Positions 4,903-62,371 of a stretch of DNA of 64,000 nucleotides are shown piece after piece. The stretch is from the NCBI GenBank assembly GCA_965369625.1, contig CBDUQW010000003.1, positions 9,883-73,882 on the forward strand. Reading direction: 5' to 3'. The notes beneath the pieces were generated by a model. The model made no database searches. It was given only the letters and a program-made list of their open reading frames with translations, and was not told the origin of the DNA. A program made the position numbers and the translations under genes. Origin of the DNA: an uncultured Thermoplasmata archaeon (GTDB taxonomy: Archaea; Thermoplasmatota; DTKX01; GCA-020343715). The stretch's first letter is position 1; each line of letters starts with the position of its first letter.

Positions 4903-7900
4903 ATGAATGGGAACAGAAAAGCAATCCGTATCACCGTCATCGGAGGCCTGGCAACGCTGTTGCTGGCCTTGGTGGTCGTCCTTATGGCCAATCCTGCCGC
5001 AGCCTCTGGCTCAGGCGACTGGCCTCCACCGTTTATGGGTGACTGGGTCATCAACCAGCCCACGACCGTCATCGATGAGACCATCTACGTCTTCGACGGC
5101 AACATCACCGTGAACAGCAAGCTCTCCATCCAGAACTGCAACGTGTACACCATTGTGTGGTCCCAGATGGATTACTATGATGTCAAGGTCAACGCTGCCG
5201 GTTCCCTTCAGTCCAACGACAGTTACTGGAGCTCTTGGAACGCTATGTTCGGGTTCTACTGGGACTTCTACATGGACGGCACTTGTGACATCGACAACTG
5301 CGTATTTTACTACAATAACGATGTGGACATCAACGGCACCGCCACGTTCAATAACACCGTGTTCGACCACGTCTACGACGGGTTCAACTTAACTGGTTCG
5401 ATGGACTTCACCCACTCAGACCTGATCTACACCTACGGGGGTATCAACCTCGGTGGGACCTCGACTTTCGACGATGCCTACATCAGCAACGTCTATGATG
5501 GGTTCAAGATCTCCGGGTCGGCGGACTTCAACGGCAGCACCATCAGGTACGTGTACGATGCCTTCAACGTGACGGGCACCGCCAGCTTCGACTACCAGTA
5601 CATGTACCGGATATACGACGGCTTCAACATGATGGGGACCGTGGACATCTGGATGGGAAACCTGCAGTACCTCTACGAGGCCAACTTCACCGGGAACGTG
5701 GACATCGCTGAGACCTACTTCTACAGGATGTACGACGGGGTGAAGATGACGGGTAACATCCGCATAGCCAACTGCGACTTCGTGTACACCTACAAAGGGG
5801 TGTACATCAGCAGCAACGTCGCCATAGTCAACAGCACCTTCAACATGTACTACAAGGGCATCTTCATCGACAACTGCGACCCCACGTTCAACAACGTCAC
5901 GGTGTACGTCAGGAGCAGCTACAGCTACGACTACCACATTTCCACGGACATGTCCTGGTCCGAAGAGGACCGGCTCCCTATGGCCGTTGGCACGGGCATC
6001 TGGGTGGACAACGGCGTACCCAGCTTCACCGATGTGACCGTGGAGGCCGATGTGACGGCGAACTTCTACGTCGAGTACACCGGGACCGAGGAGGACGTCA
6101 CCCTCTACCTTATGGGGATGGTCTGCCCGGTGCTCATCGACTCGCCAGCCATGGACGTGGTGTCGGGCCTGACCGTCATGAACTCCTACTTCCACATGCG
6201 GTCCTACGCGGCGGCCACCGACCCCGGGATCAATCCGAAGTACTTTTATGTGGACTTCATGGGGGTCTCGGCCGGTATCGGGATAATCAACTACACCGAC
6301 ACCACCATCACCGACGTGGTCTCGTACAACAACTACTACGGCAGCATATACGGACCCTACGTATCCGGCTACTCCTATGGAGGGGGCGGATGGAGGGACT
6401 ACGGACCCGCGGTGCAAGTGGGCGCTGCCGCGTACGGCAGCTCCAGCACCGCACCCGACACGACGGTGACCGTATCGGACCTGACCATCGACGACGGGAC
6501 GAACTGGTTCGGCCACTTGTACTACTCTGGATTCAGCGGGGTCGGCGTACCGACCCTGAGCGATACCATCGTGATCCAGAACGTGATCGTGAATAGCGCG
6601 TCGGGAGTCGTGTTCGGGTTCGATATACAGCCCTCCTTTGCGGGGATACGCACGATAGACATCGACCTGAGGATCACCGACTGCACCTTCATGGACGTCG
6701 ATGGCGCCATCCTGATGTACTCCAGCAACGCGGGTCCCGGTATCGACCCCGATATGAAGATGGTCGACGTGACCGAGAACATCCTCATCGACAACAACAC
6801 GATAGACGAGTGCTTCTCCACGTGGACGTACTTCATCGTCGACTCCGTTGGGACGGACCACAAGTCCGACAGGTGGGACCGGACGCTCACCTTCGCGGAC
6901 AACGATTTCATCAACTCGTATGGCACACTGTTCGAGGTGGGTGGTCTCGACTACTACGACACGGGCACGTGCACGCTCAATGTCGTCAACAACAACATGG
7001 TCAACGTCACCGACGGCCCTTCGTCGAACAGCGGACCATACTACGCAGACGACTTCGAAGTCATCAGGTTCACTGGCAACACCATGACGGACATGCATTA
7101 CAGCCAGACGGGTGACTTCTACGACGTGGGCGGTGATGACAATGGGGTCAAGCCCGTCGACTGGCTGTTCAAGAACAACGTGATCACCAACTGCACCAAC
7201 GAGCGCTGGAGCGAGATAATCTTCCTGGAGTTCGGCGGTGCCGTCGTGGTCGAGGGGAACGAGATGTCCATGGGCAATGGCTTCCTGAGCATGTGGCACG
7301 AGACTATGTACACTGGCGTTGCCACCCTCGACATCGTGGACAACGAGTTCTATCAGATGTCCGCCTACATGGCGGAGTTCGGGAACACCGACGAGGGCAA
7401 CGTGAACTTCGTGGTGACGGTCAAGGACAACACCGTCTACGAGTGCGAGGACTTCTTCCTCAACTTCTGGGGGAGCGCCTCGAACATCAACCCGTACGAC
7501 CGGGACGCCACGTACGTCATCGAGGACAACCTCGTCCACAACAACACCGGTGGGTTCATCAACGTATGGGGCAAGGTGACCGTCCAGGACAACATGTTCT
7601 TCGACAACGCCGGTCCCCTCCTTTACATCGAGTACATCAACCTCAATCCGCCCGTGGTGTTGGGCAACCAGATGGCCAACAACATGGACCTGTTCATGTT
7701 CGTCGCCAAGGACAAGGGCTTCGAGCTGGTCCCATACGGGATGTCCAACGAGATGCTCTCCTGCACCGGGACGGCCTTCAGCTTCACCAACATGGAGGTC
7801 ACCCTCACTAGGGTCGACATCAGCGGCGCCGACCAACACATCTGGGCCTTCAACAGTGTCGTCAACGCCTACTCCAGCAGCATCGACGGGACCAAGTGCA

Positions 7901-9921
7901 CGGTGGTCGCCGACGGCAAGATAACCACCTGGTGGCCCATCGAGGTGAAGGTGACCTGGGGAGACGACATGGGGGTCGATAGCACCACTCCCGTGTCCGA
8001 GGCCTTGGTCGTGTTCTACGACGCCCAGGACGTCTACTACACCTCAGTGTACGCTGGTACGGATGGCATCCTTCCGGAGCACCTGTACATGGAATGGACC
8101 GTTGATACGGGTGGGATCTACGAGTTCTCCCCCCTCGAGGTCAAGGCCGCCTCGTCCGGCGCCACCAACGACACCGTAGTGACGCTGAACATGGACCTGG
8201 TGGGCCCCGACGCAGTGCACATCGTGCTGTGGGATGCCTTCGCGCCCACGGTGGCCATCACCGAACCCTACGATGGTTCCATCTTCAACAAGGACTCCAT
8301 CGAGGCCTACGGGTTCGTAACGGAGGTGGGCTCCGGTCTGGACATCATCGAGTACAGCCTGACCGGGAGCACCTGGTTGCCCCTTGAGATCTCCGACAGC
8401 GGAGATTGGTCGCTGCCACTAACTGAACTCGGGGAGGGTGACGTCACCCTGTGGGTGAGGGCGTCCGACATCGCCAGCAACCTGGCGACGACCAGCATCA
8501 CCATCACCATCGACACCATGCCACCGGACCTGACCATCAGCAGTGTGCCCGAACGGACAAACAACCCAGATCTGTTCATCACCGGGACCATCGAGGTGGG
8601 GGCGGACCTTTACGTCAACGGAATCTTCGTGGAGACCGCAGAGAGCAGCTCCCTCATGATAGCCCACACGCTCCATGAGGGGAGCAACATCATCCTCATC
8701 GAGGCGATGGACTCGGCGCACAACGTGGCGTTCGAGACCATAGAGACCGTTCTGGACACCCAGCTTCCAACGTTGGTACTGACCGGACCTGCCTACGGCA
8801 CGGTGACCAACCAGGAGACCGTCATGGTGACGGGCATTGTGGAGGGGGGAACCACCCTCACGGTGGGAGGCACCCCGGTCATTCCCGATACGGACGGCTC
8901 CTTCAGCCACGCATACACCCTCAGCTCCGGGGATAACATGATCGAGGTGAAGGCCACCGACCTCGCGAGCAACGTGGCCACCGTGACCGTGCTCGTCGAG
9001 CTGGACCTGCTGCCGCCCTCCGTGGAGATAGTGGAACCCTCCGAGGACTTCATCACGTCCGAGACCTTCATCGAGGTCAACATCCGCGCCGACGAGGACG
9101 CCACACTCTGGCTGAACGGCCGACCTACCGTCAACGATGGGGACTTCTGGAGGACCGTCCTGCTCCTTGAGGGGGACAACACCATAGTCGTCAAGGGCAT
9201 GGACCCCGCCGGGAACGTCGCAGAGGACAGCGTCATGGTCAAGCGCGATACCATGCCACCCGACCTTATGGTGCTGGTACCTGCCGACCTGGTCACGTGG
9301 AGCAACCAGATGATGCTGACCGTCTCCGGTCTCGCCCTCAACGCGACCGAGGGTGTCTTCGTCAACGGCGAGGCAGTGGACTCGTACAATCCGTCCACGG
9401 GCGCCTTCAGCCATTCGGTGACCATCACCAGTGGCGAGAACAACATCACCGTCGAGGCCAAGGACGAAGTGCACGTCGTGACCCACATGCTCAAGGCGAT
9501 GGTGAGCACCTCCACCCCCAAGCTGGTGATCAACACCGTCGAGTCGCCCGTGACGACCTCATCGGTCACCATCTCCGGCGAGACCGACTTGGGGATCGAG
9601 ACCGTCATGGTCGAGGTCGGGACGAAGACTATGGAGTTTGGTGTCATGTACGATGGGACCTTCTCCTTCACCTTGAACCTAGAGGACGGTAACTATATCG
9701 TGAAGGTCTCGGTGGATGACAGGTACGGTAACACGGCGACCGAGCAGACCAACAGCTTCGACGTAAAAGAGAAGGACTACTTCCCTGACGATGGAGGCGA
9801 AGTGGGCGAATCCGTCAGCATCGAACCGATTCACATCGGCCTGCTCCTGGCCGTGATCGGCATCACGCTGATCGTCGCGGCCCTTTGGGCCACGTGGAAG
9901 ATCTCCCGGCGAGGTGAGTAG
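4903..9921 (+). CDS. Giant surface protein (1672 aa): N-terminal signal/anchor, 20-aa YDGF solenoid repeats plus beta-helix region, Ig-like modules, C-terminal TM anchor
   Basis: ATG lies directly after the TAA of the previous gene with GGAGG upstream. The N-terminal hydrophobic segment ends in AAA-S. There are many N-x-S/T sequons. Ig-like modules carry the D-x-A-x-N signature (ASDIASNLA, AMDSAHNVA, ATDLASNVA, GMDPAGNVA). The C-terminus is IHIGLLLAVIGITLIVAALWATW plus basic residues. Confidence 0.85.
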   Translation: MNGNRKAIRITVIGGLATLLLALVVVLMANPAAASGSGDWPPPFMGDWVINQPTTVIDETIYVFDGNITVNSKLSIQNCNVYTIVWSQMDYYDVKVNAAGSLQSNDSYWSSWNAMFGFYWDFYMDGTCDIDNCVFYYNNDVDINGTATFNNTVFDHVYDGFNLTGSMDFTHSDLIYTYGGINLGGTSTFDDAYISNVYDGFKISGSADFNGSTIRYVYDAFNVTGTASFDYQYMYRIYDGFNMMGTVDIWMGNLQYLYEANFTGNVDIAETYFYRMYDGVKMTGNIRIANCDFVYTYKGVYISSNVAIVNSTFNMYYKGIFIDNCDPTFNNVTVYVRSSYSYDYHISTDMSWSEEDRLPMAVGTGIWVDNGVPSFTDVTVEADVTANFYVEYTGTEEDVTLYLMGMVCPVLIDSPAMDVVSGLTVMNSYFHMRSYAAATDPGINPKYFYVDFMGVSAGIGIINYTDTTITDVVSYNNYYGSIYGPYVSGYSYGGGGWRDYGPAVQVGAAAYGSSSTAPDTTVTVSDLTIDDGTNWFGHLYYSGFSGVGVPTLSDTIVIQNVIVNSASGVVFGFDIQPSFAGIRTIDIDLRITDCTFMDVDGAILMYSSNAGPGIDPDMKMVDVTENILIDNNTIDECFSTWTYFIVDSVGTDHKSDRWDRTLTFADNDFINSYGTLFEVGGLDYYDTGTCTLNVVNNNMVNVTDGPSSNSGPYYADDFEVIRFTGNTMTDMHYSQTGDFYDVGGDDNGVKPVDWLFKNNVITNCTNERWSEIIFLEFGGAVVVEGNEMSMGNGFLSMWHETMYTGVATLDIVDNEFYQMSAYMAEFGNTDEGNVNFVVTVKDNTVYECEDFFLNFWGSASNINPYDRDATYVIEDNLVHNNTGGFINVWGKVTVQDNMFFDNAGPLLYIEYINLNPPVVLGNQMANNMDLFMFVAKDKGFELVPYGMSNEMLSCTGTAFSFTNMEVTLTRVDISGADQHIWAFNSVVNAYSSSIDGTKCTVVADGKITTWWPIEVKVTWGDDMGVDSTTPVSEALVVFYDAQDVYYTSVYAGTDGILPEHLYMEWTVDTGGIYEFSPLEVKAASSGATNDTVVTLNMDLVGPDAVHIVLWDAFAPTVAITEPYDGSIFNKDSIEAYGFVTEVGSGLDIIEYSLTGSTWLPLEISDSGDWSLPLTELGEGDVTLWVRASDIASNLATTSITITIDTMPPDLTISSVPERTNNPDLFITGTIEVGADLYVNGIFVETAESSSLMIAHTLHEGSNIILIEAMDSAHNVAFETIETVLDTQLPTLVLTGPAYGTVTNQETVMVTGIVEGGTTLTVGGTPVIPDTDGSFSHAYTLSSGDNMIEVKATDLASNVATVTVLVELDLLPPSVEIVEPSEDFITSETFIEVNIRADEDATLWLNGRPTVNDGDFWRTVLLLEGDNTIVVKGMDPAGNVAEDSVMVKRDTMPPDLMVLVPADLVTWSNQMMLTVSGLALNATEGVFVNGEAVDSYNPSTGAFSHSVTITSGENNITVEAKDEVHVVTHMLKAMVSTSTPKLVINTVESPVTTSSVTISGETDLGIETVMVEVGTKTMEFGVMYDGTFSFTLNLEDGNYIVKVSVDDRYGNTATEQTNSFDVKEKDYFPDDGGEVGESVSIEPIHIGLLLAVIGITLIVAALWATWKISRRGE

Positions 9922-11104: not shown

Positions 11105-14100
11105 GTGAAACAGATGACTGGACCCCACGGTGTAAGGGATAGGAAGGGACGGCCCAGCAAGACTGGCCGGTCCAGCCGCGGTCGCCAGGATGCCGCGGAG
11201 ACGTCCCGATCCAGCACCAGGGAGGGGTTGAAGCAGGTCAAGAGGTACCTATGGCAACGCAAGTACACCATCATCTACCTGCTCATCCTGATAATCCTCT
11301 CCTTCGCCGTAAGAGCGGTCTGGTACTACCCTGCGGCGTACACCGGCGGACCGACCCCACTTCTCTCGGGTAACGACCCCGACTATCACAAGCGCACCGT
11401 GGATGTCTTCCTCACGCAAAAGGAATTCCTCCAATGGGACCCTCTCCTGAACTACCCGGCTGGCGGCCCCAACCCCAACCCGCCGGCGTACTCCACATCG
11501 GTGGCATTGATAGGCCTGGCCATAACACCGTTCTACGATTCTGTGGACGCTGCCGTCTGGTTCTCGATGCAGATAGGGGCCTGTCTGTGGGCGGCCCTCA
11601 CGGTCATCCCGGTGTACCTGTTCACCAAGGAGATGTTCGGACGCAAGAGCGCCTACATGGCCGCGCTGTTCATCGCCTTCATGGCGGGCAACGTGGAGAG
11701 GACCCCCCTGGGGTTCTCTGACCACGACGCATTCTTCATGTTCTTCATCGTGGTGGGCTTCTTCTTCATGCTCAAGTCCCTGCGCCTGGTCAAGACGCGG
11801 GTGTACGTCAAGAGCTGGCGGGAGCCTGTCGACATCACGATAGGGCTCACAGAGTTCGTGCGTACAAACCGTATTGCACTTCTGTACTCGGTCATGGCCG
11901 GCTTCTCGCTGGCGGCGGTGGCGCTATCGTGGAAGGGTTTCCCATACGCCCTCGCGATCATCTTCGTGTACCTGCTGTTCCACATGTTGGTCAACAAGTT
12001 CAGGCGCATCGACAACACGGCCATAGGGCTGACCGTCCTCATCACCGTCTCGATCCTCATGCTGGTCTCGCTACCCTACTACATGGAGATGAACTTCATG
12101 AACTGGTACGAGGCCCCCTCGATCCTCTTCGCGGGCATCTGTCTGATCGTCGCCGTCTTCCTCTTCACAAGGGACCTGCCCTGGCTGCTGATACTGCCCA
12201 TCTTCCTGTTGATACTCGTGGTCGCCATGACCGCCATCTGGTTCCTTCTTCCAGATGTGTGGGCCAACGTCTTCAGCGGCGCGGGCTACTTCATCAGGAC
12301 CAAGCTGTATGGGACCATCGCTGAGGCGCAGCCACCCGACTTCAACCGTCTGGTGTTCGCCTACGGCATGACCACCTTCTTCCTGGCCCTCATCGGCGTC
12401 GTCATCATGATGAAGGACCTGCCCAAGGGCTGGAAGAACGACCACATCTTCACTACCATCTGGGCCCTTGTCTCCATCTACATGGCCGTCGCGGCCATAC
12501 GCTTCATGTACAACGCCACCCCCGTCTTCGCCATCCTGTCCGGCTGGATCACCTGGTCGGTCATAGAACGGCTTGACTACCGACGGATGGCACGGGTGTT
12601 CAGGAGCATGAGGGGGGACTTCTTCAAGGCCATCAAGGTCTCCATCAAGCTTCGTCACGTAGGAGGCGCCCTGTTCCTCGTCTTCCTGATACTGGCACCC
12701 AACATCTGGTACAGCGTGGACGCCGGGATCCCGTACGAGGACAAGAAGGAGAAGGACCTCCAGATCTACAACTGGATCCCGGAATTCATGCGACCGGACA
12801 AGGACCTTTTCGACCCCGACAGCAACAACCTGTGGTACCTGGGCTCCTTCGGGACCAGCTTCATGTCCCACTACTGGGCGGAAGGCATGTGGTGGCTGTC
12901 CGACCAGGACACATGGGTGCCCGAGGAGGAGAGGCCCGGCTTCATATCGTGGTGGGACTACGGTCACTGGTGCGTCAACGTGGGAGATCATCCCACGGCG
13001 GCGGACAACTTCCAGAACGGTGTGGAGTTCGCGGGGAACTTCATAGGGATAGACGGCGAGGAATCGGCCAACGCGCTGATGCTCGTGCGGTTGTTCGAGA
13101 CCAACGTCCGGAACGAGACCGTCGTGCAGTACATGAGGGACCAGATAGGCGATGAGGCGACCAACGAGCTCCTTGACCTTTACAGGAACCCCGCCAAGTA
13201 CACCGACGACATCCACAAGTACCCCGAGCGCTACGGCCTCAAGGACGACGACGTCTCGCCCAGGAACACCGTGTACATCCACGGCACCTGGGTCATCAAG
13301 CAGAGCGCCGACGATGTCCAGCGGATCGAGATGCTCCTTTGGTACGGAAGGGCGGTGGGGGACGAGTTCAGGTACTTCGCCGTGGACTCTCGGCTGATGC
13401 CGACCAGTTACCAGAACACGGGCATCTTCTACGCGCCCATCACCCTCTCCGACAGCCGGGTCGAGGACTACATCGAGATCGTCGCCATCTACAACGGCAA
13501 CCAGATCACCCTCGAACAGGCCTCGGAACTTCCTGCGGCGGAGCGCCAGAACCTCCAGTACCAGCTGGTCTGGAAGCGCCCCTTCTTCGAGTCCATGTTC
13601 TACCGGTGCTTCATCGGCTACAGCGGCTACGACCAGGGTCCTGAGTTCACCGACAAGGGCATCCCATACGTCACCGGGGACCTGGCCCAGTACCCGCCGC
13701 AGTACGCGTGGAACCAGAGCAACTGGGCGGCCGTCTCCCACACCGTCCACTGGAACCCCTACGACGCCGAGAACCTCAGCAAGCACCAGCGCGACTGGGA
13801 GGTCATCTCCTGGGAGGAGGGCGTCAGGGTCAAGCGGGAGGACACAGGGGTCGTCGATGACGCCATCCGGAACATCCAGCAGGGTGTCATCTACATCAAG
13901 TGGTACGCAGGGGCCTACATCAACGGCACCGTCACCACCGAGGCAGGAGATCCGATCCCCGGGGCCACCATAACCGTTCACGACGGCTTCAGGTACCTTG
14001 GCGGGTACATGGGACCCGAATACGTCGGTGTGCCCCATGGCACCACGACAACGGACGAGAACGGCAGGTACTCGATCCTAGCACCCTTCGGTAACGTCAC

Positions 14101-17100
14101 CGTCGTGGCCTCGAACGGAGGCAGCCTCGACTACCTGACCCTCCACGAGCGCAACACCCTCAACCAGACCAACCTGTTCATCTCCGACGACGCCGCGATG
14201 CGGAGGGGGGAGTACAACTTCACCGCGGACATGACGGTCCCGACGGCCTACCAGAACGGCATCCTCTTCATCGACACCAACGCCAACGGCAGGTACGACG
14301 AGGACGAGGACGAGCCCATGGCCAACGCGACGATGATGCTCGAGGGCGTCAAGGGGCTGAACGTCACCGAGAACCTGACCACCTACGCCAACGGATTCTA
14401 CGAGTTCAAGGACGCCCTGCCAGGCGAGTACAGTATCGACGTCCTGTACGATGACCACGAGATAGAGGACGTGGCGCTCATCGTCCTGTCCCCGGGCCAG
14501 ATCAAGAGCGAGGACATTCCCGTGATGCAGTCGGAGATCACCGGCACCATCTACCGTTTCGACGGCGAGGATGTCGAGGGCACCGAGGTGACCGTCAGGT
14601 ACCTACTGAAGAACACGACCACCGTGCAAGAGGCCGACGCCACCGGAGTGTACAGGTTCGATGACCTCCTGCCAGGCAATTACAGCATAGAGCTCTACGT
14701 TCCCGGCACCCAGCCCATCAACGAATCCGTGACCCTGGGCCTGGCCGAGGTGAGCTCCCACAACTTCACCCTGGTACCCATCGCCTTCGTCGAGGGCACT
14801 GTGTACCGGGACGACAACGGCAACGACATGCCTGACCCCGGTGAGGGCCTGGCGAACGTCACCATCACCTACCAGAGGCTCGACGCTGAACGCGGCATCC
14901 TCTCGACGGTCTCCAACGAGACGGGCCACTACAACGCCTCCGTCTCCGCGGGATACTGGTCCACTTACATCAACGAGTTCCGTGACGGTCTCGAGGGACA
15001 GACCGACAGCGAGCGCTTCGGTCACCTGTCGACCATGGTGGTGGACCCCGACAACTGGTCCTACTCCGTCAACCTGAGCGTCGTCGATTCTCACAGGGTC
15101 AACGGGACCGTGATGCGCGCCGCCTCCGACACCAACGATACCCTCATCCCGGCCGGACGCACGGTCATGGAGATCTGGAACCAGGACAGCCGCATGCAAG
15201 TGATGGCCAACTCGTCCGGCGTCTTCGACATCGCCCTGCCGACGGGCAACTACTCGCTGTTCGTCCAGAAGACCATCGGCGAGCGACCCCGCGTGAACCT
15301 CACCACCCTTGAGGTGACCGAGGACCTCGATCTGGACCAGGTGGTGCTCGAGAACGGCACCCGGCTGGAGGGGCACGTCTACTTCGACAAGAACGGCAAC
15401 AACGCCGTCAACCCTGGAGAGGGTATCAACAAGGCGGAGATGCTGTTCGAGTCGGAGGGCTATATCTTCAACCTGACGACATCGGACAACGGGAGCTACG
15501 CCCTGGTCGCGGCTCCACTGAACTTCACGGTCCACATCGAGGACCCCGCCTTCGAACCCTACGTTAGCCACATCAACGCGACGGGCAACGTCCCGCTCAC
15601 GAAGAAGAACTTCCCGCTGCAGCCGTACAACGTCTCGTACTCCGGCCTTGCCGGATACGACTGGGAGGGCGACAACAACCTGACGGGCAACGGCTTCCCC
15701 AACCTCAACATCTCCTTCATCGCCAAGGACCCGGACAACAATCCCAACGCCGTCTCCATCAACGTGACGACCGACGCCAAGGGCAACTACGAGGTCGAGC
15801 TGGCTCCGGGCCTGTACCGCGTGAAGGTGCTCCAGGACGAGGAGGAGGACCTGGGTCTGTTCAGGTACTCCTACAATGAGGAATGGGACATCGACCCCAG
15901 CACCGAGGACTCAACGCGGAACATCTGGCTCGACAGGAGTGTCAGGTTCAACGGCACCGTGGTGCTGTACGGCAACAACACCACCGTCAACACCAACATC
16001 AGGGTGGACGAGGGTGACCATAGGACATCCATATCCGTCATCCACGGCGAGTTCGACGACTACCTGATCGTCGGCGAGCACCTGCTCACCGCCACCTACT
16101 TCACGTCGCCGCCCGAGGGCGACCCGGTCCGGTACGAGCTGGAGATGATATACGACTTCGACCATCCGACCACCCTCGAGCTGGTCATGTATCCCACCAT
16201 CGAGTTCTCGGGCTACCTCTATTACGACTGGAACGAGAACGGCAAGTACGACCCGCCTGAGGACCCGAACGACCCGAACGACGTCGGCGAGGGCATCCAC
16301 GTGCCCAGCTTCACCCTGCAGGGGATCAGGGACCACGCGGTGCATCCCTTCGTCAACGGTTCGTTCAAATCCAAGGTCTTCCCTCACGACAACTACACCC
16401 TGTTCCTGGAGTACAGGCACTTCAACTCAACGGCCAGGGTCAATTACCAGTGGTTCAAGAACATGACCATCGACCTGTCCAATGACACCTACATCGAGAT
16501 ACCCCTTGACAGGCTTATGGAGCTCCGAGGGCAGGTGTTCTGGGACATCAACGAGGACGACCAGCCCTCCTTTGACGAGAGCATCGCCAACTCCACCGTC
16601 AACATCGTGGGCATGAACACCACCCACGAGTACGAGGCCATCACCGACGAAACTGGTCATTACAACGAGTGGGTCAATGTGAGGGTGAACGGCACCGCGA
16701 CCTACAACGTCACGGTGAACAGGTCCGGTTTCGAGCCCCTCGAGCCCTTCTGGATCCATACCATGGAGCCCACCGACATCCCCCTCAACCTTGAGATGAT
16801 GGCCAACAACGTGACCTTCAACGGCACCACCTTCCTGGACCAGAACTGGAACGGGAAGATGAACAGCTACGAGTTCCCTGTCCCGGTCGAGAACATCGAG
16901 CTCTGGAGCGCCCAGAACACCAGCGTCCACTACGTGACGTCGTCGGACGAGAACGGCAGCTTCATGATATCCGTGGAGCCAGGTGAGTACGACATCTATG
17001 CCTGGACCGACCTCAACGGGAGCTTCCTTGTCCACCTCGGTGCCCACGAGGTGGAGCCAGAGGGCGAGGTCCAGGACGTATTCCTTCCCATGGTCCCCGG

Positions 17101-18220
17101 GCGACGTGCCTCAGGCATCATGTTCTTCTACAACTACACCGAGCACAACGACACCGTTCAGGAGGTCAACCTCACCTTCGAGCAGATCGACGGCAACGGG
17201 AAGGTCCCCATCCTACCGGCCAGCGGAGGGGTGTTCTCGGCGGTCCTGCCCGAGGGACGCTACGATGTGAACGGTTCCTTCGAGAACTCAGAGTTCGGTG
17301 TGAACATGACCTACGAGCTAGAGGACGATTTCAGGATGGTCCTCAGCGACCTCGACGACGCCGAGCTCAACTTCACCAGGGTCAGCGAGTACAAGCTGGA
17401 CCTCTGGTGGGACGACCTGCCCATCAACATCGATGTCAACTCGTCTTACAACCTGACCGTCTACGCCAAGAACACCGGCTCTGAGAACGGCACCTTCGAC
17501 ATCGACCTGAAGACCCCGCCGGATTGGACCTACGAGACCGAGGTCGACAACGTGACCCTCAACCTCTCCCAGACCACCTCGTTCTGGCTCCAGATCAACT
17601 CCTCGGACCGCGCGGGGGCCGGACCCAACGACGTGACCGTTCGTGCCATCCCGAGGGACAGCAACGACGACCCCAGCGAGCTGGTCATCAACGTCAACAT
17701 CAACCAGTTCTACGGTTTCGAGATCAGTGAACCAGACCAACAGACGGGATTCTACCGGTGGGAGGCGGAGACCGACGGCGGGACCAGGCGCATGGTATCG
17801 TACTTCTTCTCGGCGGAGAACACGGGCAACGGCGAGGAGATGCTCAAGCTCACCCACTCATCCATTCCCAACTGGACCATAGATTTCCCTGAGGACACCA
17901 TCCTTCTCCTGCCCTTCGAGAAGAAGTCTGTTCCCTTCGAGGTCATACTCCCCGACAAGGATGAACTGAAGCCTCAGGTCCTCACCATCACGGCGGTGTC
18001 GCTGAACGATCCCAGCCAGGGGCCAGACGTCCTGGAACTGGAGCTCTCCTTCGCCCAGCTCACCATCTATCCTGAGGACATGAAGGGCGAGACGGAGGAT
18101 GGCGAGGAGATCGGTTCCCCTCCGAACGAGGCTCCGGGCTTCGGACTGCTGGGTGCCCTGGCGGTCCTCGGTGCGGCAGGGATGGCGGCCAGGCGTCGCA
18201 AGAGGGAGGTGGTGGAGTGA
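11105..18220 (+). CDS. aglB: Oligosaccharyltransferase AglB/STT3 fused to a roughly 1400-aa extracellular array of CarboxypepD_reg/SdrD-B-like beta-sandwich repeats, ending in a PGF-CTERM sorting signal
   Basis: The first ~600 aa form a multi-pass hydrophobic N-terminal half. The first-loop acidic motif is GNDPDYH. The catalytic WWDYG motif (ISWWDYGHW) lies at nt 12950-12964. From about nt 13927 there are a dozen or more repeats of the type ..G.V..D.NGN...D.GE.....V.......T.T...G.Y.F..L.PG.Y.. . The last 29 aa are PGFGLLGALAVLGAAGMAARRRKREVVE. The start could also be ATG 11114. Confidence 0.9.
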   Translation: MKQMTGPHGVRDRKGRPSKTGRSSRGRQDAAETSRSSTREGLKQVKRYLWQRKYTIIYLLILIILSFAVRAVWYYPAAYTGGPTPLLSGNDPDYHKRTVDVFLTQKEFLQWDPLLNYPAGGPNPNPPAYSTSVALIGLAITPFYDSVDAAVWFSMQIGACLWAALTVIPVYLFTKEMFGRKSAYMAALFIAFMAGNVERTPLGFSDHDAFFMFFIVVGFFFMLKSLRLVKTRVYVKSWREPVDITIGLTEFVRTNRIALLYSVMAGFSLAAVALSWKGFPYALAIIFVYLLFHMLVNKFRRIDNTAIGLTVLITVSILMLVSLPYYMEMNFMNWYEAPSILFAGICLIVAVFLFTRDLPWLLILPIFLLILVVAMTAIWFLLPDVWANVFSGAGYFIRTKLYGTIAEAQPPDFNRLVFAYGMTTFFLALIGVVIMMKDLPKGWKNDHIFTTIWALVSIYMAVAAIRFMYNATPVFAILSGWITWSVIERLDYRRMARVFRSMRGDFFKAIKVSIKLRHVGGALFLVFLILAPNIWYSVDAGIPYEDKKEKDLQIYNWIPEFMRPDKDLFDPDSNNLWYLGSFGTSFMSHYWAEGMWWLSDQDTWVPEEERPGFISWWDYGHWCVNVGDHPTAADNFQNGVEFAGNFIGIDGEESANALMLVRLFETNVRNETVVQYMRDQIGDEATNELLDLYRNPAKYTDDIHKYPERYGLKDDDVSPRNTVYIHGTWVIKQSADDVQRIEMLLWYGRAVGDEFRYFAVDSRLMPTSYQNTGIFYAPITLSDSRVEDYIEIVAIYNGNQITLEQASELPAAERQNLQYQLVWKRPFFESMFYRCFIGYSGYDQGPEFTDKGIPYVTGDLAQYPPQYAWNQSNWAAVSHTVHWNPYDAENLSKHQRDWEVISWEEGVRVKREDTGVVDDAIRNIQQGVIYIKWYAGAYINGTVTTEAGDPIPGATITVHDGFRYLGGYMGPEYVGVPHGTTTTDENGRYSILAPFGNVTVVASNGGSLDYLTLHERNTLNQTNLFISDDAAMRRGEYNFTADMTVPTAYQNGILFIDTNANGRYDEDEDEPMANATMMLEGVKGLNVTENLTTYANGFYEFKDALPGEYSIDVLYDDHEIEDVALIVLSPGQIKSEDIPVMQSEITGTIYRFDGEDVEGTEVTVRYLLKNTTTVQEADATGVYRFDDLLPGNYSIELYVPGTQPINESVTLGLAEVSSHNFTLVPIAFVEGTVYRDDNGNDMPDPGEGLANVTITYQRLDAERGILSTVSNETGHYNASVSAGYWSTYINEFRDGLEGQTDSERFGHLSTMVVDPDNWSYSVNLSVVDSHRVNGTVMRAASDTNDTLIPAGRTVMEIWNQDSRMQVMANSSGVFDIALPTGNYSLFVQKTIGERPRVNLTTLEVTEDLDLDQVVLENGTRLEGHVYFDKNGNNAVNPGEGINKAEMLFESEGYIFNLTTSDNGSYALVAAPLNFTVHIEDPAFEPYVSHINATGNVPLTKKNFPLQPYNVSYSGLAGYDWEGDNNLTGNGFPNLNISFIAKDPDNNPNAVSINVTTDAKGNYEVELAPGLYRVKVLQDEEEDLGLFRYSYNEEWDIDPSTEDSTRNIWLDRSVRFNGTVVLYGNNTTVNTNIRVDEGDHRTSISVIHGEFDDYLIVGEHLLTATYFTSPPEGDPVRYELEMIYDFDHPTTLELVMYPTIEFSGYLYYDWNENGKYDPPEDPNDPNDVGEGIHVPSFTLQGIRDHAVHPFVNGSFKSKVFPHDNYTLFLEYRHFNSTARVNYQWFKNMTIDLSNDTYIEIPLDRLMELRGQVFWDINEDDQPSFDESIANSTVNIVGMNTTHEYEAITDETGHYNEWVNVRVNGTATYNVTVNRSGFEPLEPFWIHTMEPTDIPLNLEMMANNVTFNGTTFLDQNWNGKMNSYEFPVPVENIELWSAQNTSVHYVTSSDENGSFMISVEPGEYDIYAWTDLNGSFLVHLGAHEVEPEGEVQDVFLPMVPGRRASGIMFFYNYTEHNDTVQEVNLTFEQIDGNGKVPILPASGGVFSAVLPEGRYDVNGSFENSEFGVNMTYELEDDFRMVLSDLDDAELNFTRVSEYKLDLWWDDLPINIDVNSSYNLTVYAKNTGSENGTFDIDLKTPPDWTYETEVDNVTLNLSQTTSFWLQINSSDRAGAGPNDVTVRAIPRDSNDDPSELVINVNINQFYGFEISEPDQQTGFYRWEAETDGGTRRMVSYFFSAENTGNGEEMLKLTHSSIPNWTIDFPEDTILLLPFEKKSVPFEVILPDKDELKPQVLTITAVSLNDPSQGPDVLELELSFAQLTIYPEDMKGETEDGEEIGSPPNEAPGFGLLGALAVLGAAGMAARRRKREVVE
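18134..18217 (+). other. PGF-CTERM-type archaeosortase recognition signal at the C-terminus of AglB
   Basis: A PGF tripeptide (18134-18142) is followed by a Gly/Ala/Leu-rich hydrophobic helix and an RRRKR cluster. Confidence 0.7.
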
Positions 18221-19176
18221 AGGGAGTCAGAACCCGGGTGAGGGGTGCGAACGCGCGACTCACCATCCTGCTCCTCATCGCCATGCTGGTCACCGTACCC
18301 ATGGCAAGCGCCTACCTCAATCCGCAGATCGACATGACGGAGTACGCCAGGGACGAGACGTGCTACTGCCACGGTGTGGAGGTCTCTCCGAACGTCACCA
18401 TCGTCATCGAAGTTGCGGACAAGGTCTTCTTCAACGACAACAACGACACCATCCCCGTCCAGGTTGGCATCCTTGGCGACCCCCAGAACATCACGGGGTT
18501 CGCGCTCTACCTCAACGGGACGGAGAGCAATGACAACCTGCGGTGGGAATACAGCTTCGGCCTCAGCGACGGTCAGGTGGAGAGGCCGCGCGAGTGGATC
18601 AAGATCAACGGGTCGGCCGTCTGGCCCATCGTCCCCGTCACTGAGAAGTACTTCAACCTCAGCTTCTTCCCAGGTAGCGTCGACCAGGGCGTGGTCATCA
18701 GCGTGACCGGGATGAGGGCGAACGGGAACGTCAACGAGACGGGGGACCTCTGGAACGTGGCCAGGACCACCGTGAAGGTCAGGGAGCAGCGCATGGCGAC
18801 CCTCAACGTGACGGTCACCAACTCCGAGCCCATCGCCGTGTCTGACGTGCTCGTCGACTTCTACGTCGACGACGGGTACATCGGCAACTACACCATACCC
18901 CACATCGGCGAGAACGGTCGCGAGAACGCCACCGTGCAGTGGGACATCACCTACGAGAAGGATGGCAAGCACGAGCTCCGGGCGGTCATCGATCCCGATG
19001 GGAGGATCACCGTCCTCGACCGTGACGAAATTGAGATAACCACGGAGATATGGCTCGGGGAGCGTCCTGAGGAGCCCGACTACGCCCTCTACTACGGTCT
19101 CGGGAGCGTGCTGGTGGGTGTCCTCATCATCGTGGCCATCTTCTGGTACTGGCGCAGGCGGCAGTACCGGTTCTGA
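18217..19176 (+). CDS. Membrane-anchored extracellular protein with a CARDB-like domain
   Basis: A GTG start overlaps the aglB stop (GTGA). The signal peptide ends in VPMASA. The segment VTVTNSEPIAVSDVLVDFYVDDGYIGNYTIPHIGENGRENATVQW..GKHELRAVIDPDG resembles CARDB. The C-terminal TM is LGSVLVGVLIIVAIFWYW plus RRRQ. Confidence 0.7.
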   Translation: MKGVRTRVRGANARLTILLLIAMLVTVPMASAYLNPQIDMTEYARDETCYCHGVEVSPNVTIVIEVADKVFFNDNNDTIPVQVGILGDPQNITGFALYLNGTESNDNLRWEYSFGLSDGQVERPREWIKINGSAVWPIVPVTEKYFNLSFFPGSVDQGVVISVTGMRANGNVNETGDLWNVARTTVKVREQRMATLNVTVTNSEPIAVSDVLVDFYVDDGYIGNYTIPHIGENGRENATVQWDITYEKDGKHELRAVIDPDGRITVLDRDEIEITTEIWLGERPEEPDYALYYGLGSVLVGVLIIVAIFWYWRRRQYRF

Positions 19177-19996: not shown

Positions 19997-21283
19997 TTGG
20001 CCGATGAGGAAGGGTGGGACGACGGGTCCAAGGACCCTGACGAAGAGGGCCAGGAGCAAGAGCCACGCAGGGTCAGGCCCCTATTCCGGTTCCGACGCAA
20101 CAAGAACAAGGGGGAGGAGGCAGAACCCCGACCCGAGGAACCGACCGAGGAGGTCGAGGAGGAGGCCCCCGACGACGAGACCTACCCTGCCAGGGTCCGA
20201 CCGGTCCGTGTCGTGAAGTTCGTGCCCGACTCGGACCAACCAATGTCATCAGAGGATGGGGAGGAGGCCCCACACGAGGAGGCCGAGGTCATCGAGGAGG
20301 AGGAGGCCCCGTTCGCATTCACCGAGGAGTTCGGCGCGGAGCAGGCTCCCTTCGAGGAGGCCGAGGATATTGGTGATGAGGCCACTCCCTTCGCCGAGGT
20401 TGATATTATCAAAGAGGAGGAAGCTCCATTCGCGGAGGCTGACGCCGGCGGAGAAGAGGAGACCCCTTTCTCAGATGCCGAGGTCATCGACGAGGGGGAG
20501 CAGGAGCCTCCGTTCGCGGAGGCCGAGGTCGTTGACGAGGAGAAGAAGGAGCCTCCGTTCGCGGAGGCCGAGGTCGTTGACGAGGAGGAGGAGCCTCCAT
20601 TCGTGGAGGCCGAGGTCGTTGACGATGGGGAGGCCCCCTTCACGGTCGAGGAAGCCACAGGGACAGGGATGGCCTTCACAGAGGTCGTCGAGGAGGAACA
20701 GCCCTTCGTTGTCGCCGAGGAGGGGGACGATGTCCCCGAGGTCCCCTTCGCGGTGATCGAGGAGGTGGAACGGGAGGAGGTCGTGGATGATGGCGTCAGT
20801 GCCGAGGAGGAGGCTGAGATGAGCGAGGACCTGGATTTCCGTCAGGAGGAGACCCCCGTCAAGTTCGAACGCAAGGAACCTACGTTCGATGAGGGACCAG
20901 GGAGCTCACCCGATCCTGGCCATGGAGGAGGGATCCCTGCCGTCCCCCTAACCACGACCGAACCAGGCCATGAGGAGATGCCCCACTATCACAAGTACCT
21001 CAAACCCGACGAGGATCTGGTGTCCCGACCCCAGGCCAGGGGTAGGCCCACGGGTTTCGACCAGGACCTGGAGAGCGAGGCCGGTGAGATTGACTTCGGC
21101 ATAGACCTCATCGACCCCCACGAGCGCAAGAAGAAGAAAGCGCCCAAGAAGAGCGGGGACCAATCCACACAACTAAAGAAGGGGACCATCGGAAGCCACG
21201 ATAGCGATGGCGAGGTGGGGACCCGAGAGCTGGGTGTGGACATTGGCGTTGACTATTCCAAGCGGAGGAAGAGGAGGCTCTGA
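19997..21283 (+). CDS. Highly acidic, low-complexity protein with about 11 PF-centred short repeats and a basic C-terminal tail; function unknown
   Basis: The ORF has high GC3. It contains repeats such as EEAPFAEADA, QEPPFAEAEVVDE, KEPPFAEAEVVDE and EEPPFVEAEVVDD. The C-terminus is KKKKAPKK...KRRKRRL. The track start is TTG, so the true start is uncertain. Confidence 0.6.
   Translation: MADEEGWDDGSKDPDEEGQEQEPRRVRPLFRFRRNKNKGEEAEPRPEEPTEEVEEEAPDDETYPARVRPVRVVKFVPDSDQPMSSEDGEEAPHEEAEVIEEEEAPFAFTEEFGAEQAPFEEAEDIGDEATPFAEVDIIKEEEAPFAEADAGGEEETPFSDAEVIDEGEQEPPFAEAEVVDEEKKEPPFAEAEVVDEEEEPPFVEAEVVDDGEAPFTVEEATGTGMAFTEVVEEEQPFVVAEEGDDVPEVPFAVIEEVEREEVVDDGVSAEEEAEMSEDLDFRQEETPVKFERKEPTFDEGPGSSPDPGHGGGIPAVPLTTTEPGHEEMPHYHKYLKPDEDLVSRPQARGRPTGFDQDLESEAGEIDFGIDLIDPHERKKKKAPKKSGDQSTQLKKGTIGSHDSDGEVGTRELGVDIGVDYSKRRKRRL
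20504..20630 (+). repeat. Tandem direct repeat (units of 45, 42 and about 40 bp) inside the acidic protein gene
   Basis: GAGCCTCCGTTCGCGGAGGCCGAGGTCGTTGACGAGGAG... starts at 20504, 20549 and 20591 with near-perfect nucleotide identity. Confidence 0.85.
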
Positions 21284-24538: not shown

Positions 24539-25399
24539 CTAGATATCCACGGGAGTGTCGTGCAGACCGAAGCCCATCAGCTTCCTGTCCATCCCGAAGG
24601 CCAAGCCGTACAGCTGCGACAGGTGGAGCACGGGGTACTGCTTCTCCCTTCCAAGGTCCTTCTGTCCCCTGTCATACTGCAGATGACAGAAGGGGCACAC
24701 GTCGAGGATGAGGTCGACCTCCACCTCGTCAAGGTACTTCAGCTTCTCCTCCGTCATCTTCAGGGCGACGTCGGGGGTGTTCGCCCGAACACCTCCACCG
24801 GCCCCACAGCACATCTGCTTGTGGCGATATTCAACCGACTTCGCACCCGTGGCCTCCACCAGGTCCTCCAGGAGGTGGGGGGTCTCCGGGTTGTCCAGGT
24901 TCCTGACCGCACTGGGCTTGAGGAAGTGGCAGCCGTAATGGATGGCGATGTTGAGATGGTCCAGCGAGTGCGTGACCTTCTTCGCTATGGCGTCGGGTCC
25001 AAGGTCCTTATGCAAGACCTCGGCGAAGTGGCGGACCTGGGTCTTGCCCTTGTACTCCTTGCTGCCGGCCTTCTTCAAGATCTTGTTGACCTCATCGCGC
25101 TTCGCATCGTCGTGGTTGAGGACGTGGGCGGCCTCGTCGAGGGAGCCATAGCAGCCGTTGCACACCGTCAGGATGTCCAGCTTGGCCTCTTGCGCGGCCA
25201 CCAGATTATGGGCGGCCAGCGACAGCCAAGTGGGGGAATGGAGGGAACGGGTGACGCCAGGCGCCGGGCAACAGGAGAACTCCTCCACGTCCACAAGTTC
25301 GAAGCCCAGCTCCTTCATGATCTCCCGGGTCGAACTCTCGATGCCGGGATAGCGCATCGGCATGATACAGCCAAGGAAGAACGCGTACTTGGACATCAC
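24539..25399 (-). CDS. hdrB: Heterodisulfide reductase subunit B (two CCG domains)
   Basis: It has FFLGCIMPMRYPGIE, SCCPAPG, VCNGC, MCCGAGGG and VCPFCHLQY, which is the canonical HdrB cysteine pattern. It overlaps hdrC by 4 nt. Confidence 0.92.
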   Translation of the reverse strand: MMSKYAFFLGCIMPMRYPGIESSTREIMKELGFELVDVEEFSCCPAPGVTRSLHSPTWLSLAAHNLVAAQEAKLDILTVCNGCYGSLDEAAHVLNHDDAKRDEVNKILKKAGSKEYKGKTQVRHFAEVLHKDLGPDAIAKKVTHSLDHLNIAIHYGCHFLKPSAVRNLDNPETPHLLEDLVEATGAKSVEYRHKQMCCGAGGGVRANTPDVALKMTEEKLKYLDEVEVDLILDVCPFCHLQYDRGQKDLGREKQYPVLHLSQLYGLAFGMDRKLMGFGLHDTPVDI

Positions 25400-58320: not shown

Positions 58321-58456
58321 ATTTGGTGTGAATCCAATGTATTATGGTGTACATATGGTGCCACGGCCGGGGGTGGCGGGGCTGGGGGTCAACATCGTCG
58401 CCGTGCCATCACCTGGAGGATGGCCATCTTGGGAAAGTTTCAATACCGGGGGTGGC

Positions 58457-58963: not shown

Positions 58964-58965
58964 CC

Positions 58966-59376: not shown

Positions 59377-59463
59377 CGTCCTCGACTGTGATAACCAACG
59401 GTCAGATATCCTTTTTCCGCCTTGGCACAACAGTTTTATCGCATCGGGGCGGTTCACGGGTCT

Positions 59464-60525: not shown

Positions 60526-60543
60526 ACGGACCTGTCGGAACCA

Positions 60544-61665: not shown

Positions 61666-61668
61666 GGC

Positions 61669-62082: not shown

Positions 62083-62089
62083 GGGCGCC

Positions 62090-62332: not shown

Positions 62333-62371
62333 GTGCCAGGCATACCCGACGCCTCATAAATAGGTTGTCCC

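What the first reader, a model, noticed from the sequence alone, without database searches (positions are those of the whole stretch)
11105..18220. Giant AglB (2371 aa) with about 1400 aa of extracellular beta-sandwich repeats and a PGF-CTERM archaeosortase signal
The STT3/AglB core (WWDYG at 12950-12964) normally accounts for about 800-1000 aa. Here it is followed, from about 13927, by a dozen or more CarboxypepD_reg/SdrD-B-like repeats that are rich in N-x-S/T sequons. The protein ends with PGF, a hydrophobic helix and RRRKR, which is the recognition signal of archaeosortase A. That enzyme normally processes and lipid-anchors S-layer glycoproteins. A polytopic enzyme that is also an archaeosortase substrate would be anchored at both ends. 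Alternatively, the repeat array may be cleaved off or act as a surface scaffold. None of the neighbouring surface proteins carries PGF-CTERM.
Basis: partly seen in the sequence, partly recalled or inferred. Interest (0 to 1): 0.7.

Follow-up and report, generated by a model that had tools for sequence, protein, structure and literature searches.

The report
Giant double-anchored archaeal N-glycosylation enzyme
This is an intact gene for the enzyme that attaches sugars to archaeal surface proteins, carrying a very long sugar-site-rich stalk and a second membrane anchor that looks like a sortase signal; this form is standard across the phylum Thermoplasmatota, but I found no paper describing it.

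Summary
ORF 11105-18220 (probable ATG start 11114, 2368 aa) is an uninterrupted AglB/STT3 with all catalytic motifs. It continues into 12 CarboxypepD_reg-like and 2 NEW3/CARDB-like beta-sandwich domains, a disordered linker, then PGF, a 16-residue Ala/Gly-rich hydrophobic stretch and RRRKR.

It is not a fusion artefact. More than 200 protein clusters and 455 hits among species-representative genomes share the collinear 2100-2800 aa architecture, and all named sources are Thermoplasmatota-type.

Every complete relative ends in a membrane anchor, so anchoring at both ends is the conserved design. Only two coherent clades, including this one, carry PGF[G/E]. The stalk holds four times more N-x-S/T sites than its composition predicts. 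A small CARDB membrane protein is co-encoded directly downstream, and appears fused to AglB in the longest forms.

The PGF-CTERM model score is borderline. However, similar tails sit on another secreted protein beside a PGF-type aglB, and on a protein next to a genuine archaeosortase A gene. No archaeosortase gene could be shown in this genome or its clade, so processing remains inferred.

This is a new variant of a known enzyme and moderately interesting.

The parts
11114..18220 (+). Giant aglB gene (2368 aa from the ATG at 11114; an in-frame GTG at 11105 would add 3 codons).
   Evidence: Uninterrupted ORF. It is identical to database protein P0001. Full-length homologues show 50-75% identity over 98-100% of the length, and about 30% in more distant lineages.
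11114..13918 (+). AglB/STT3 catalytic core: basic cytoplasmic N-tail, multi-pass membrane domain and extracellular C-terminal domain. Motifs: GNDPDYH 11369-11389, SDHDAF 11717-11734, TIAEAQ 12314-12331, WWDYG 12950-12964.
   Evidence: Pfam STT3 57 bits and AglB_core 27.3 bits. Residues 47-639 align with A. fulgidus AglB-L structures 3WAJ/5GMY. D88, D203-H204-D205, E404 and W613-G617 are invariant in 14 diverse homologues.
13919..17389 (+). Array of 12 transthyretin-like (CarboxypepD_reg/SdrD_B-like) beta-sandwich domains. Domain starts are at residues 936, 1047, 1142, 1226, 1329, 1418, 1509, 1612, 1698, 1804, 1902 and 1999. The array is dense in N-x-S/T sites.
   Evidence: Pfam CarboxypepD_reg 156 bits and SdrD_B 78 bits. 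There are 54 sequons against 13.6 expected. The AlphaFold model is all-beta. Foldseek finds only generic multi-beta-sandwich arrays. G/Y positions are conserved domain by domain across the phylum.
17390..18058 (+). Two NEW3/CARDB-like beta-sandwich domains (residues 2093-2199 and 2200-about 2315). They resemble the 'choice-of-anchor T' module.
   Evidence: Weak hits only: Pfam NPCBM_assoc (13.4 bits) and NCBIfam choice_anch_T (19 bits, cut-off 70). The AlphaFold model gives pLDDT of about 85-92 in this region.
18059..18217 (+). Disordered acidic/Pro linker followed by a three-part C-terminal signal: PGF 18134-18142, a 16-residue Ala/Gly-rich hydrophobic stretch, and RRRKR 18191-18205.
   Evidence: TIGR04126 scores 18.5 bits on the full protein and 24.6 bits on the last 100 aa (cut-off 24.5). 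The linker has pLDDT below 50, and the only helix in the model is the tail. The motif is conserved in 51 clusters. The hydrophobic stretch is shorter and richer in Ala/Gly than the plain anchors of other lineages.
18217..19176 (+). Co-encoded partner of 319 aa: signal peptide, choice-of-anchor-V-like domain, CARDB domain and a plain C-terminal transmembrane helix with a basic tail. It carries 10 sequons, and its start overlaps the aglB stop.
   Evidence: Pfam CARDB 35.9 bits and NCBIfam choice_anch_V 30 bits (below the cut-off of 42). It lies directly downstream of giant aglB in at least 41 of 59 evaluable loci, and in every PGF-type locus fetched that has sequence downstream. Its CARDB+TM half aligns with the C-terminus of the 2450-2790 aa AglB forms.

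Best explanation
**What is shown**
- The gene encodes the Thermoplasmatota-type giant AglB, with every catalytic motif of the oligosaccharyltransferase intact.
- Its extracellular C-terminal domain continues into a fixed-length stalk of 14 beta-sandwich domains. The stalk is tied back to the membrane by a second, C-terminal anchor.
- The stalk and a co-encoded CARDB membrane protein are several-fold enriched in N-glycosylation sites.

**What is inferred**
- The enzyme probably glycosylates its own stalk. Together with the partner, the stalk would form a heavily glycosylated arch or canopy on the cell surface.
- In the window's clade, the plain transmembrane anchor of other lineages has been replaced by a PGF + short Ala/Gly-rich hydrophobic + Arg-run tail.
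- That tail is most likely a genuine archaeosortase-type sorting signal. It would be cleaved and exchanged for a lipid anchor, which leaves the both-ends-anchored topology unchanged.
For: **The architecture is real and conserved**
- 209 homologous clusters were found, nearly all 2100-2800 aa.
- 455 relatives were found among species-representative genomes.
- Collinear matches to the array occur almost only in giant AglBs or their fragments, among 1.84 billion representative proteins.

**The enzyme looks functional**
- The catalytic residues are invariant, and the core aligns with solved AglB-L structures.

**The stalk**
- It is all-beta at pLDDT 81.5, with no specific fold match.
- Sequon enrichment is 4-fold here and 3-fold as the family median.

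**The distal anchor is universal**.

**The tail behaves like a sorting signal**
- P/G/F are conserved 51/46/46 of 51 in a variable context, with a median of 27 aa from the motif to the C-terminus.
- PGF-type tails form two coherent clades on the core tree.
- The hydrophobic stretch has a median of 15 aa and 44% Ala+Gly, against 19 aa and 22% in plain tails.
- Some PGFE-type relatives exceed the curated cut-offs of the Loki-CTERM or Heimdall-CTERM models.
- A signal-peptide-bearing NosD/PKD protein 6.5 kb from a PGF-type aglB ends in nearly the same FIPGFE tail (L168).
- A PGFE-tailed protein lies 5 kb from a genuine ArtA gene and scores equally below threshold (L097).

**ArtA exists in the phylum**
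- ArtA (TIGR04125, 128-147 bits against a cut-off of 75) is found in Thermoplasmatota, and twice lies within 10 kb of a giant aglB.
Against: - No archaeosortase gene is present in the 64-kb window or in about 400 kb around 14 PGF-type aglB genes.
- In the genomes where ArtA lies on the same contig as aglB (L015, L054, and probably P0189 with P0062, linked only by matching contig length), the AglB tail is a plain transmembrane helix.
- TIGR04126 is below or just at its cut-off for this clade.
- The known ArtA substrates described in PMC7157517 are Sec or Tat secreted proteins, not multi-pass enzymes.
- Self-glycosylation and the canopy role are inferred only from sequon density and topology.
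Confidence: 0.6

Rival explanations
1. The C-terminal tail is simply a permanent transmembrane anchor, as in the other Thermoplasmatota lineages. The PGF motif would be a clade-specific structural feature at the membrane interface, or a relic, and no sortase acts on it.
For: - Most orthologues have plain transmembrane tails in the same position.
- No ArtA was found in the window or near any PGF-type aglB.
- Neighbouring anchored proteins, including the operon partner, use plain tails.
- PGF_CTERM scores 18.5-24.6 bits against a cut-off of 24.5.
Against: - The motif is retained down to about 30% overall identity while its flanks vary.
- It co-occurs with a shortened, Ala/Gly-rich hydrophobic stretch and an Arg run.
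- The same tail type appears on an unrelated secreted protein on a PGF-type aglB contig, and on a protein next to a genuine ArtA gene.
Confidence: 0.3
2. After synthesis the stalk is cut away from the enzyme and acts as a separate, sortase-anchored surface (S-layer-like) glycoprotein. The gene would then be a polyprotein.
For: - The array with its PGF tail resembles a typical sortase-anchored surface protein, and it is highly glycosylatable.
- The partner's CARDB+TM half aligns with the C-terminus of the longest AglB forms, so this locus seems to tolerate fusion and separation of modules.
Against: - The representative-protein search returned no clear free-standing homologue of the array. Collinear matches are giant AglBs or partial genes, and no stand-alone array was identified.
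- No conserved linker or cleavage motif was seen at the core-array junction. The first repeat follows the AglB C-domain directly.
- The fused state is kept in hundreds of genomes.
Confidence: 0.08
3. A frameshift or assembly error joined aglB to a separate downstream surface-protein gene.
For: None beyond the unusual length.
Against: - The ORF is uninterrupted and its G+C content is even.
- Independent assemblies from NCBI, ENA, JGI and Logan give the same 2100-2800 aa collinear protein, including proteins on closed chromosomes.
Confidence: 0.01

Closest known systems
Long-type archaeal oligosaccharyltransferase AglB-L (for example Archaeoglobus fulgidus AglB-L, PDB 3WAJ/5GMY)
   Same: It has the same multi-pass STT3 core and the same catalytic motifs: two acidic motifs, TIxE and WWDYG. 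Residues 47-639 align with the solved structures.
   Different: Solved AglB-L is 875 aa. This protein adds about 1430 aa: 14 beta-sandwich domains, a linker and a second membrane anchor. It also has a dedicated downstream partner gene.
TIGR04154, 'oligosaccharyl transferase, archaeosortase A system-associated'
   Same: It is the best-scoring NCBIfam family, with a match over residues 56-839. The family name already links AglB-type enzymes to the ArtA system. The basis for that link as I recall it, co-occurrence of the two in the same genomes, is from my own memory of the family description and was not checked here.
   Different: The score is 253.5 bits, far below the cut-off of 450. As I recall the family description, the link is co-occurrence only and does not make the transferase itself a sortase substrate.
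PGF-CTERM / archaeosortase A substrates such as the Haloferax volcanii S-layer glycoprotein (PMC7157517)
   Same: It has the same three-part C-terminus: PGF, a hydrophobic stretch and a basic cluster at the extreme end, preceded by a flexible linker and a glycosylated extracellular region.
   Different: Known substrates are secreted through Sec or Tat with a cleavable signal peptide. This one would be a multi-pass enzyme. The model score is borderline, and the cognate ArtA has not been shown in this genome.
Eukaryotic NOMO (nodal modulator)
   Same: NOMO is described, from my own knowledge and not checked here, as a chain of about 12 transthyretin/Ig-like domains ending in one transmembrane helix in the ER lumen. 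Sub-threshold Pfam hits to NOMO_5th, NOMO_6th and NOMO1-like_2nd were seen.
   Different: The Pfam matches are weak and below cut-off. NOMO is not fused to STT3. This is an architectural analogy only, and no homology is claimed.
SdrD/Cna B-repeat stalks of Gram-positive adhesins
   Same: Pfam SdrD_B scores 78 bits. Foldseek matches include the B. anthracis TIE protein and pilins. Both are tandem rigid beta-sandwich stalk domains followed by a C-terminal sortase-type signal.
   Different: In adhesins the stalk projects a ligand-binding head away from the cell. Here the other end of the stalk is the membrane enzyme itself, so both ends are tethered.

Membership tests
AglB/STT3 oligosaccharyltransferase | N-terminal multi-pass membrane domain that matches the STT3 model. 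| tested here: met
   PF02516 scores 57.2 bits (cut-off 24.5) over residues 85-480. The region aligns with 3WAJ/5GMY.
AglB/STT3 oligosaccharyltransferase | Acidic metal-binding motifs in the first and second external loops, and the TIxE motif of the fifth loop. | tested here: met
   GNDPDYH (D88), SDHDAF (D203-H204-D205) and TIAEAQ (E404) are present and invariant in 14 diverse homologues.
AglB/STT3 oligosaccharyltransferase | WWDYG motif in the extracellular C-terminal domain. | tested here: met
   W613-G617 at 12950-12964 is invariant. PF22627 AglB_core scores 27.3 bits (cut-off 27).
AglB/STT3 oligosaccharyltransferase | DK/MI-type motif downstream of WWDYG. | tested here: inconclusive
   There is a conserved block, YFAVDSRLMP...TGIFYAPI, with D758 and R760 invariant. 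I did not map it onto the structural DK/MI motif.
AglB/STT3 oligosaccharyltransferase | Transfer of a lipid-linked glycan to Asn in N-x-S/T. | not testable with these tools
   This needs a biochemical assay.
TIGR04154 archaeosortase-A-system-associated STT3 | Score at or above the curated cut-off of 450 bits. | tested here: not met
   The score is 253.5 bits.
PGF-CTERM sorting domain (TIGR04126) | Score at or above the curated cut-off of 24.5 bits. | tested here: inconclusive
   The score is 18.5 bits on the full protein and 24.6 bits on the last 100 aa. Close relatives score 18.5-23.4 bits. A tail encoded next to a genuine Thermoplasmatota-like ArtA scores only 19.3 bits.
PGF-CTERM sorting domain (TIGR04126) | PGF motif, a hydrophobic stretch and a basic cluster at the extreme C-terminus (PMC7157517). 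| tested here: met
   The tail reads APGFG-LLGALAVLGAAGMAA-RRRKR-EVVE. The motif is conserved in 51 clusters.
PGF-CTERM sorting domain (TIGR04126) | A cognate archaeosortase A gene in the same genome. | tested here: inconclusive
   None is present in the window or in about 400 kb around PGF-type aglB genes. The rest of the genome is not available. ArtA does exist in other Thermoplasmatota.
PGF-CTERM sorting domain (TIGR04126) | C-terminal cleavage and covalent lipid attachment. | not testable with these tools
   This needs proteomics or lipid labelling.

The most novel reading that the evidence does not exclude
In the often S-layer-less Thermoplasmatota (a characterisation from my own knowledge, not tested here), the oligosaccharyltransferase itself would be a main structural element of the cell coat. 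It would be a self-glycosylating, 14-domain arch of fixed length, tethered at both ends and working with a dedicated CARDB partner. In the window's clade the far end would be cleaved and lipid-anchored by an archaeosortase. As far as I know, that would make it the first multi-pass membrane enzyme known to be a sortase-type substrate.
Probability: 0.25. Interest if true: 0.75.

Novelty: new variant of a known kind. Interest (0 to 1): 0.55.

Why it matters
As I understand it, AglB is usually described as a single-subunit enzyme of about 600-1000 aa. This gene shows that a whole phylum uses a form two to three times larger. That phylum includes Methanomassiliicoccales, marine groups II and III, and DHVE2.

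The larger form has a conserved stalk, a second anchor and a fixed partner gene. I found no description of it in the searchable literature.

If the stalk is the enzyme's own main substrate and part of the glycocalyx, it links glycosylation machinery and envelope architecture in a single protein. If the PGF tail is processed, the substrate range of archaeosortases extends from secreted proteins to multi-pass enzymes.

Both ideas can be tested directly. The tail could be fused to a reporter in Haloferax, and enrichment cultures could be examined by glycoproteomics.

Tried and rejected
**Looking for artA in the window**
- Two multi-TM ORFs (57333-58088 and 58966-60048, both minus strand) have no NCBIfam hit.
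- An ArtA profile search over all window ORFs found nothing.

**Retrieving the window's own contig**
- P0001 is not on record in the contig look-up, so the remaining roughly 47 kb of the 110,955-bp contig could not be read.

**Linking ArtA to PGF-type AglB genomes**
- Contig-length fingerprints gave only one match: ArtA P0189 and the non-PGF AglB P0062 both report a longest contig of 129,604 bp, so they probably share a contig.
- NCBI accession ranges showed no overlap.
- Ten contig look-ups of PGF-type AglBs found no PF09721 gene.

**Metagenome scan with an ArtA profile**
- The 80 loci recovered contain no AglB and share no genes with the window clade.

**Fold search of the stalk**
- It returned only generic beta-sandwich arrays with TM-scores of 0.23 or less, so it gave no functional clue.

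**Literature**
- Searches for a description of giant Thermoplasmatota AglB found nothing.
- Haft et al. 2012 (PMC3256604) is not held in the library.

**A caveat on the ArtA probe**
- The ArtA probe was typed from my memory of the H. volcanii sequence. It was used only after it scored 346 bits on TIGR04125. All conclusions rest on database proteins found with it or with profiles built from them.

**Rejected reading**
- An assembly or fusion artefact is rejected.
Full report
**1. Observation**

ORF 11105..18220 on the plus strand is open for 2371 codons from a GTG. The public gene call (P0001) starts at the ATG at 11114 and gives 2368 aa. G+C content is even across the gene.

Pfam finds STT3 at residues 85-480 and AglB_core at 608-659. 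It also finds strong CarboxypepD_reg (156 bits) and SdrD_B (78 bits) repeats, and a weak NEW3 (NPCBM_assoc) match near the end. NCBIfam's best family is TIGR04154, the 'archaeosortase A system-associated' STT3, but at 253 bits against a cut-off of 450. PGF_CTERM scores 18.5 bits on the whole protein and 24.6 bits on the last 100 aa, against a cut-off of 24.5.

The repeats start at 13919. The tail reads ...SPPNEAPGFGLLGALAVLGAAGMAARRRKREVVE.

**2. Not an artefact, and not unique**

A homology search returned 209 clusters at E <= 1e-10. Almost all are 2100-2800 aa and align over 96-100% of the query. They come from NCBI, ENA, JGI and Logan assemblies. Where a source gives a name, it is Thermoplasmata, Thermoplasmatota, Methanomassiliicoccales or Euryarchaeota.

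A scan of one genome per GTDB species found 455 relatives. The 80 fetched loci include Methanomassiliicoccales (several closed chromosomes), DHVE2, Poseidoniia (marine group II), marine group III, Halarchaeoplasma and Natronoplasma.

A full HMMER scan of 1.84 billion representative proteins with the last 1197 aa found only 223 hits. The collinear ones are giant AglBs or fragments of them. I saw no free-standing version of the array. The giant form is therefore the ordinary AglB of this phylum. I found no paper describing it.

**3. Anatomy**

- **Core.** In 14 diverse homologues D88, D203-H204-D205, the TIAEAQ glutamate and WWDYG are invariant. Residues 47-639 align with the solved A. fulgidus AglB-L. 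The enzyme looks functional.
- **Stalk.** Twelve domains of about 97 aa follow (starts at residues 936 to 1999), then two domains of about 107 aa (starts at 2093 and 2200). An AlphaFold model of residues 1172-2368, built with a 19-sequence alignment, has mean pLDDT 81.5 and is entirely beta. The exceptions are a disordered linker and the terminal helix.
- **Fold matches.** Foldseek finds only generic beta-sandwich chains: alpha-2-macroglobulin domains, the B. anthracis TIE protein and integrin legs. I see no sign of a hidden catalytic or lectin domain.
- **Conservation.** Conserved Gly and Tyr positions recur domain by domain across the phylum, and total length is tightly distributed. The stalk therefore looks like an old structure of fixed length, not a fast-evolving adhesin.

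**4. Glycosylation sites**

The protein has 65 N-x-S/T sites. Of these, 54 fall in the 1165-aa array, at 4.6 per 100 aa, where composition predicts 13.6. The core has 0.2-0.7 per 100 aa, and the two large neighbouring surface proteins have about 1 per 100 aa. Across 118 homologues the median observed/expected ratio in the extension is 3.0. The stalk is most simply read as a major substrate of its own enzyme. That reading is an inference.

**5. The distal anchor**

Every complete homologue ends in a hydrophobic helix plus basic residues, so tethering at both ends is the conserved design. Three tail types occur:

- a plain transmembrane helix, which is the most common;
- a CARDB domain plus a transmembrane helix, in the 2450-2790 aa forms;
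- PGF-type tails.

On a neighbour-joining tree of the cores, the PGF type fills two coherent clades. One of them contains the window protein.

In 51 PGF-type clusters, P is present in 51, G in 46 and F in 46. The next residue is E in 31 and G in 11. The flanking positions vary, and the motif sits a median of 27 aa from the C-terminus. The hydrophobic stretch after the motif has a median of 15 aa and 44% Ala+Gly, against 19 aa and 22% in plain tails. These features fit the three-part signal defined for ArtA substrates (PMC7157517).

**6. Is it a real sorting signal?**

*For:*
- The clade-wide conservation described above.
- Several PGFE-type relatives exceed the curated cut-offs of the related Loki-CTERM or Heimdall-CTERM models.
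- On contig L168, a 518-aa NosD/PKD protein with a signal peptide lies 6.5 kb from a PGF-type aglB. It ends ...GFIPGFEAPVLVISLVAALVLVWRRKAN, and the AglB on the same contig ends ...AFIPGFEPLLVMGALVVACAAIYVRRKGGERA.
- On contig L097, a PGFE-tailed protein lies 5 kb from a genuine ArtA gene. Its tail scores only 19.3 bits on PGF_CTERM. Sub-threshold scores are therefore normal for this phylum.

*Against:*
- No archaeosortase gene is present in the window or in about 400 kb around 14 PGF-type aglB genes.
- ArtA genes are plentiful in Thermoplasmatota. Two lie within 10 kb of a giant aglB (L015 directly upstream, L054 downstream). A third, P0189, probably shares a contig with P0062, judging by matching contig length. 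In all three cases the AglB has a plain tail.

I put the chance that the tail is processed by an archaeosortase-family enzyme at a little over one half.

**7. Partner gene**

The 319-aa ORF at 18217-19176 overlaps the aglB stop. It has a signal peptide, a choice-of-anchor-V-like domain, a CARDB domain, a plain transmembrane tail and 10 sequons. A homologue sits in the same position in at least 41 of 59 evaluable loci. It is also present in every PGF-type locus fetched that has sequence downstream, including ones only 30% identical. Its CARDB+TM half aligns with the C-terminus of the longest AglB forms, which suggests a fusion in those lineages.

**8. Mechanism proposed**

*Shown:*
- An intact AglB core.
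- A conserved 14-domain extracellular stalk.
- A distal membrane anchor.
- Sequon enrichment.
- A fixed partner gene.

*Inferred:*
- The stalk is glycosylated in cis.
- Together with the partner, it forms a glycan-covered arch on the surface of organisms that, as I understand it, often lack an S-layer.
- In this clade the distal anchor is a sortase signal that is swapped for a lipid.

Because orthologues with plain helices share the same topology, exchanging the helix for a lipid would preserve the tethering rather than release the array.

**9. Comparison with known systems**

It is an AglB by every sequence test I could run. It does not meet the TIGR04154 cut-off. Its membership of PGF-CTERM is undecided: the form is met, the score is borderline and the enzyme is unseen. 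The stalk resembles NOMO and SdrD-type stalks in architecture only.

**10. Verdict**

The feature is real and conserved. It is a new variant of a known enzyme, already present in databases as unnamed or generically named proteins, but I found no description of it in the literature I could search. Interest is moderate at 0.55. It would be higher if the self-made canopy or sortase processing of a multi-pass enzyme were confirmed.

Noticed in passing
window 18217-19176 (+): A 319-aa CARDB / choice-of-anchor-V-like membrane protein is translationally coupled to aglB. It is conserved directly downstream of giant aglB across the phylum, and its CARDB+TM half aligns with the C-terminus of the longest (2450-2790 aa) AglB forms.
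   Followed up: partly
L054 19035-20612 (-); proteins P0122-P0125, P0134: In some Thermoplasmatota-type metagenome contigs, archaeosortase A is fused to an archaetidylserine decarboxylase (PssD-like) domain in a single protein of about 510-530 aa. Some of these clusters have more than 100 members. The fusion fits the ArtA-PssA/PssD functional link reported for Haloferax (PMC7157517).
   Followed up: partly
L015 8254-9177 (+) and L015 9887-16489 (+): An archaeosortase A gene (TIGR04125, 128 bits) lies directly upstream of a giant aglB, yet that AglB has a plain transmembrane tail.
   Followed up: partly
L168 23534-25090 (+): A secreted NosD/PKD protein of 518 aa ends in FIPGFE + hydrophobic stretch + RRK. 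This is nearly the same tail as the giant AglB 6.5 kb away on the same contig.
   Followed up: yes
window 466-4902 (+) and 4903-9921 (+): Two adjacent very large surface proteins (1478 and 1672 aa) carry Glucodextran_B and Big_13 repeats, and the first also has a beta-helix. The second ends in a plain transmembrane anchor, and the first ends in an extremely acidic tail. The same pair lies upstream of aglB in L001, and a similar ~1500-aa anchored surface protein lies upstream in L012.
   Followed up: no
window 24539-57169: There is a dense cluster of heterodisulfide-reductase-type genes:
- four HdrA-like paralogues of about 1000 aa (31715-34720, 35534-38554, 39338-42385, 49439-52468);
- shorter HdrA-like genes (27718-29727, 53877-55436, 55433-57169);
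- three CCG-domain HdrB-like genes (24539-25399, 30291-31241, 46283-47140);
- two MvhD/FlpD-like genes (38556-39341, 48622-49449);
- a NiFe hydrogenase small and large subunit pair (43221-45740).
   Followed up: partly
window 58328-63979: Hydrogenase maturation genes lie at the end of the window: a maturation protease (58328-58963), HypD (60544-61665, minus strand), a HypA-like gene (61669-62523, minus strand) and HypF (62372-63979, minus strand).
   Followed up: no
window 19997-21283 (+): A 428-aa protein rich in charged low-complexity sequence has no Pfam or NCBIfam hit. A family-less gene occupies the same position in L001 (413 aa) and L169 (614 aa).
   Followed up: no
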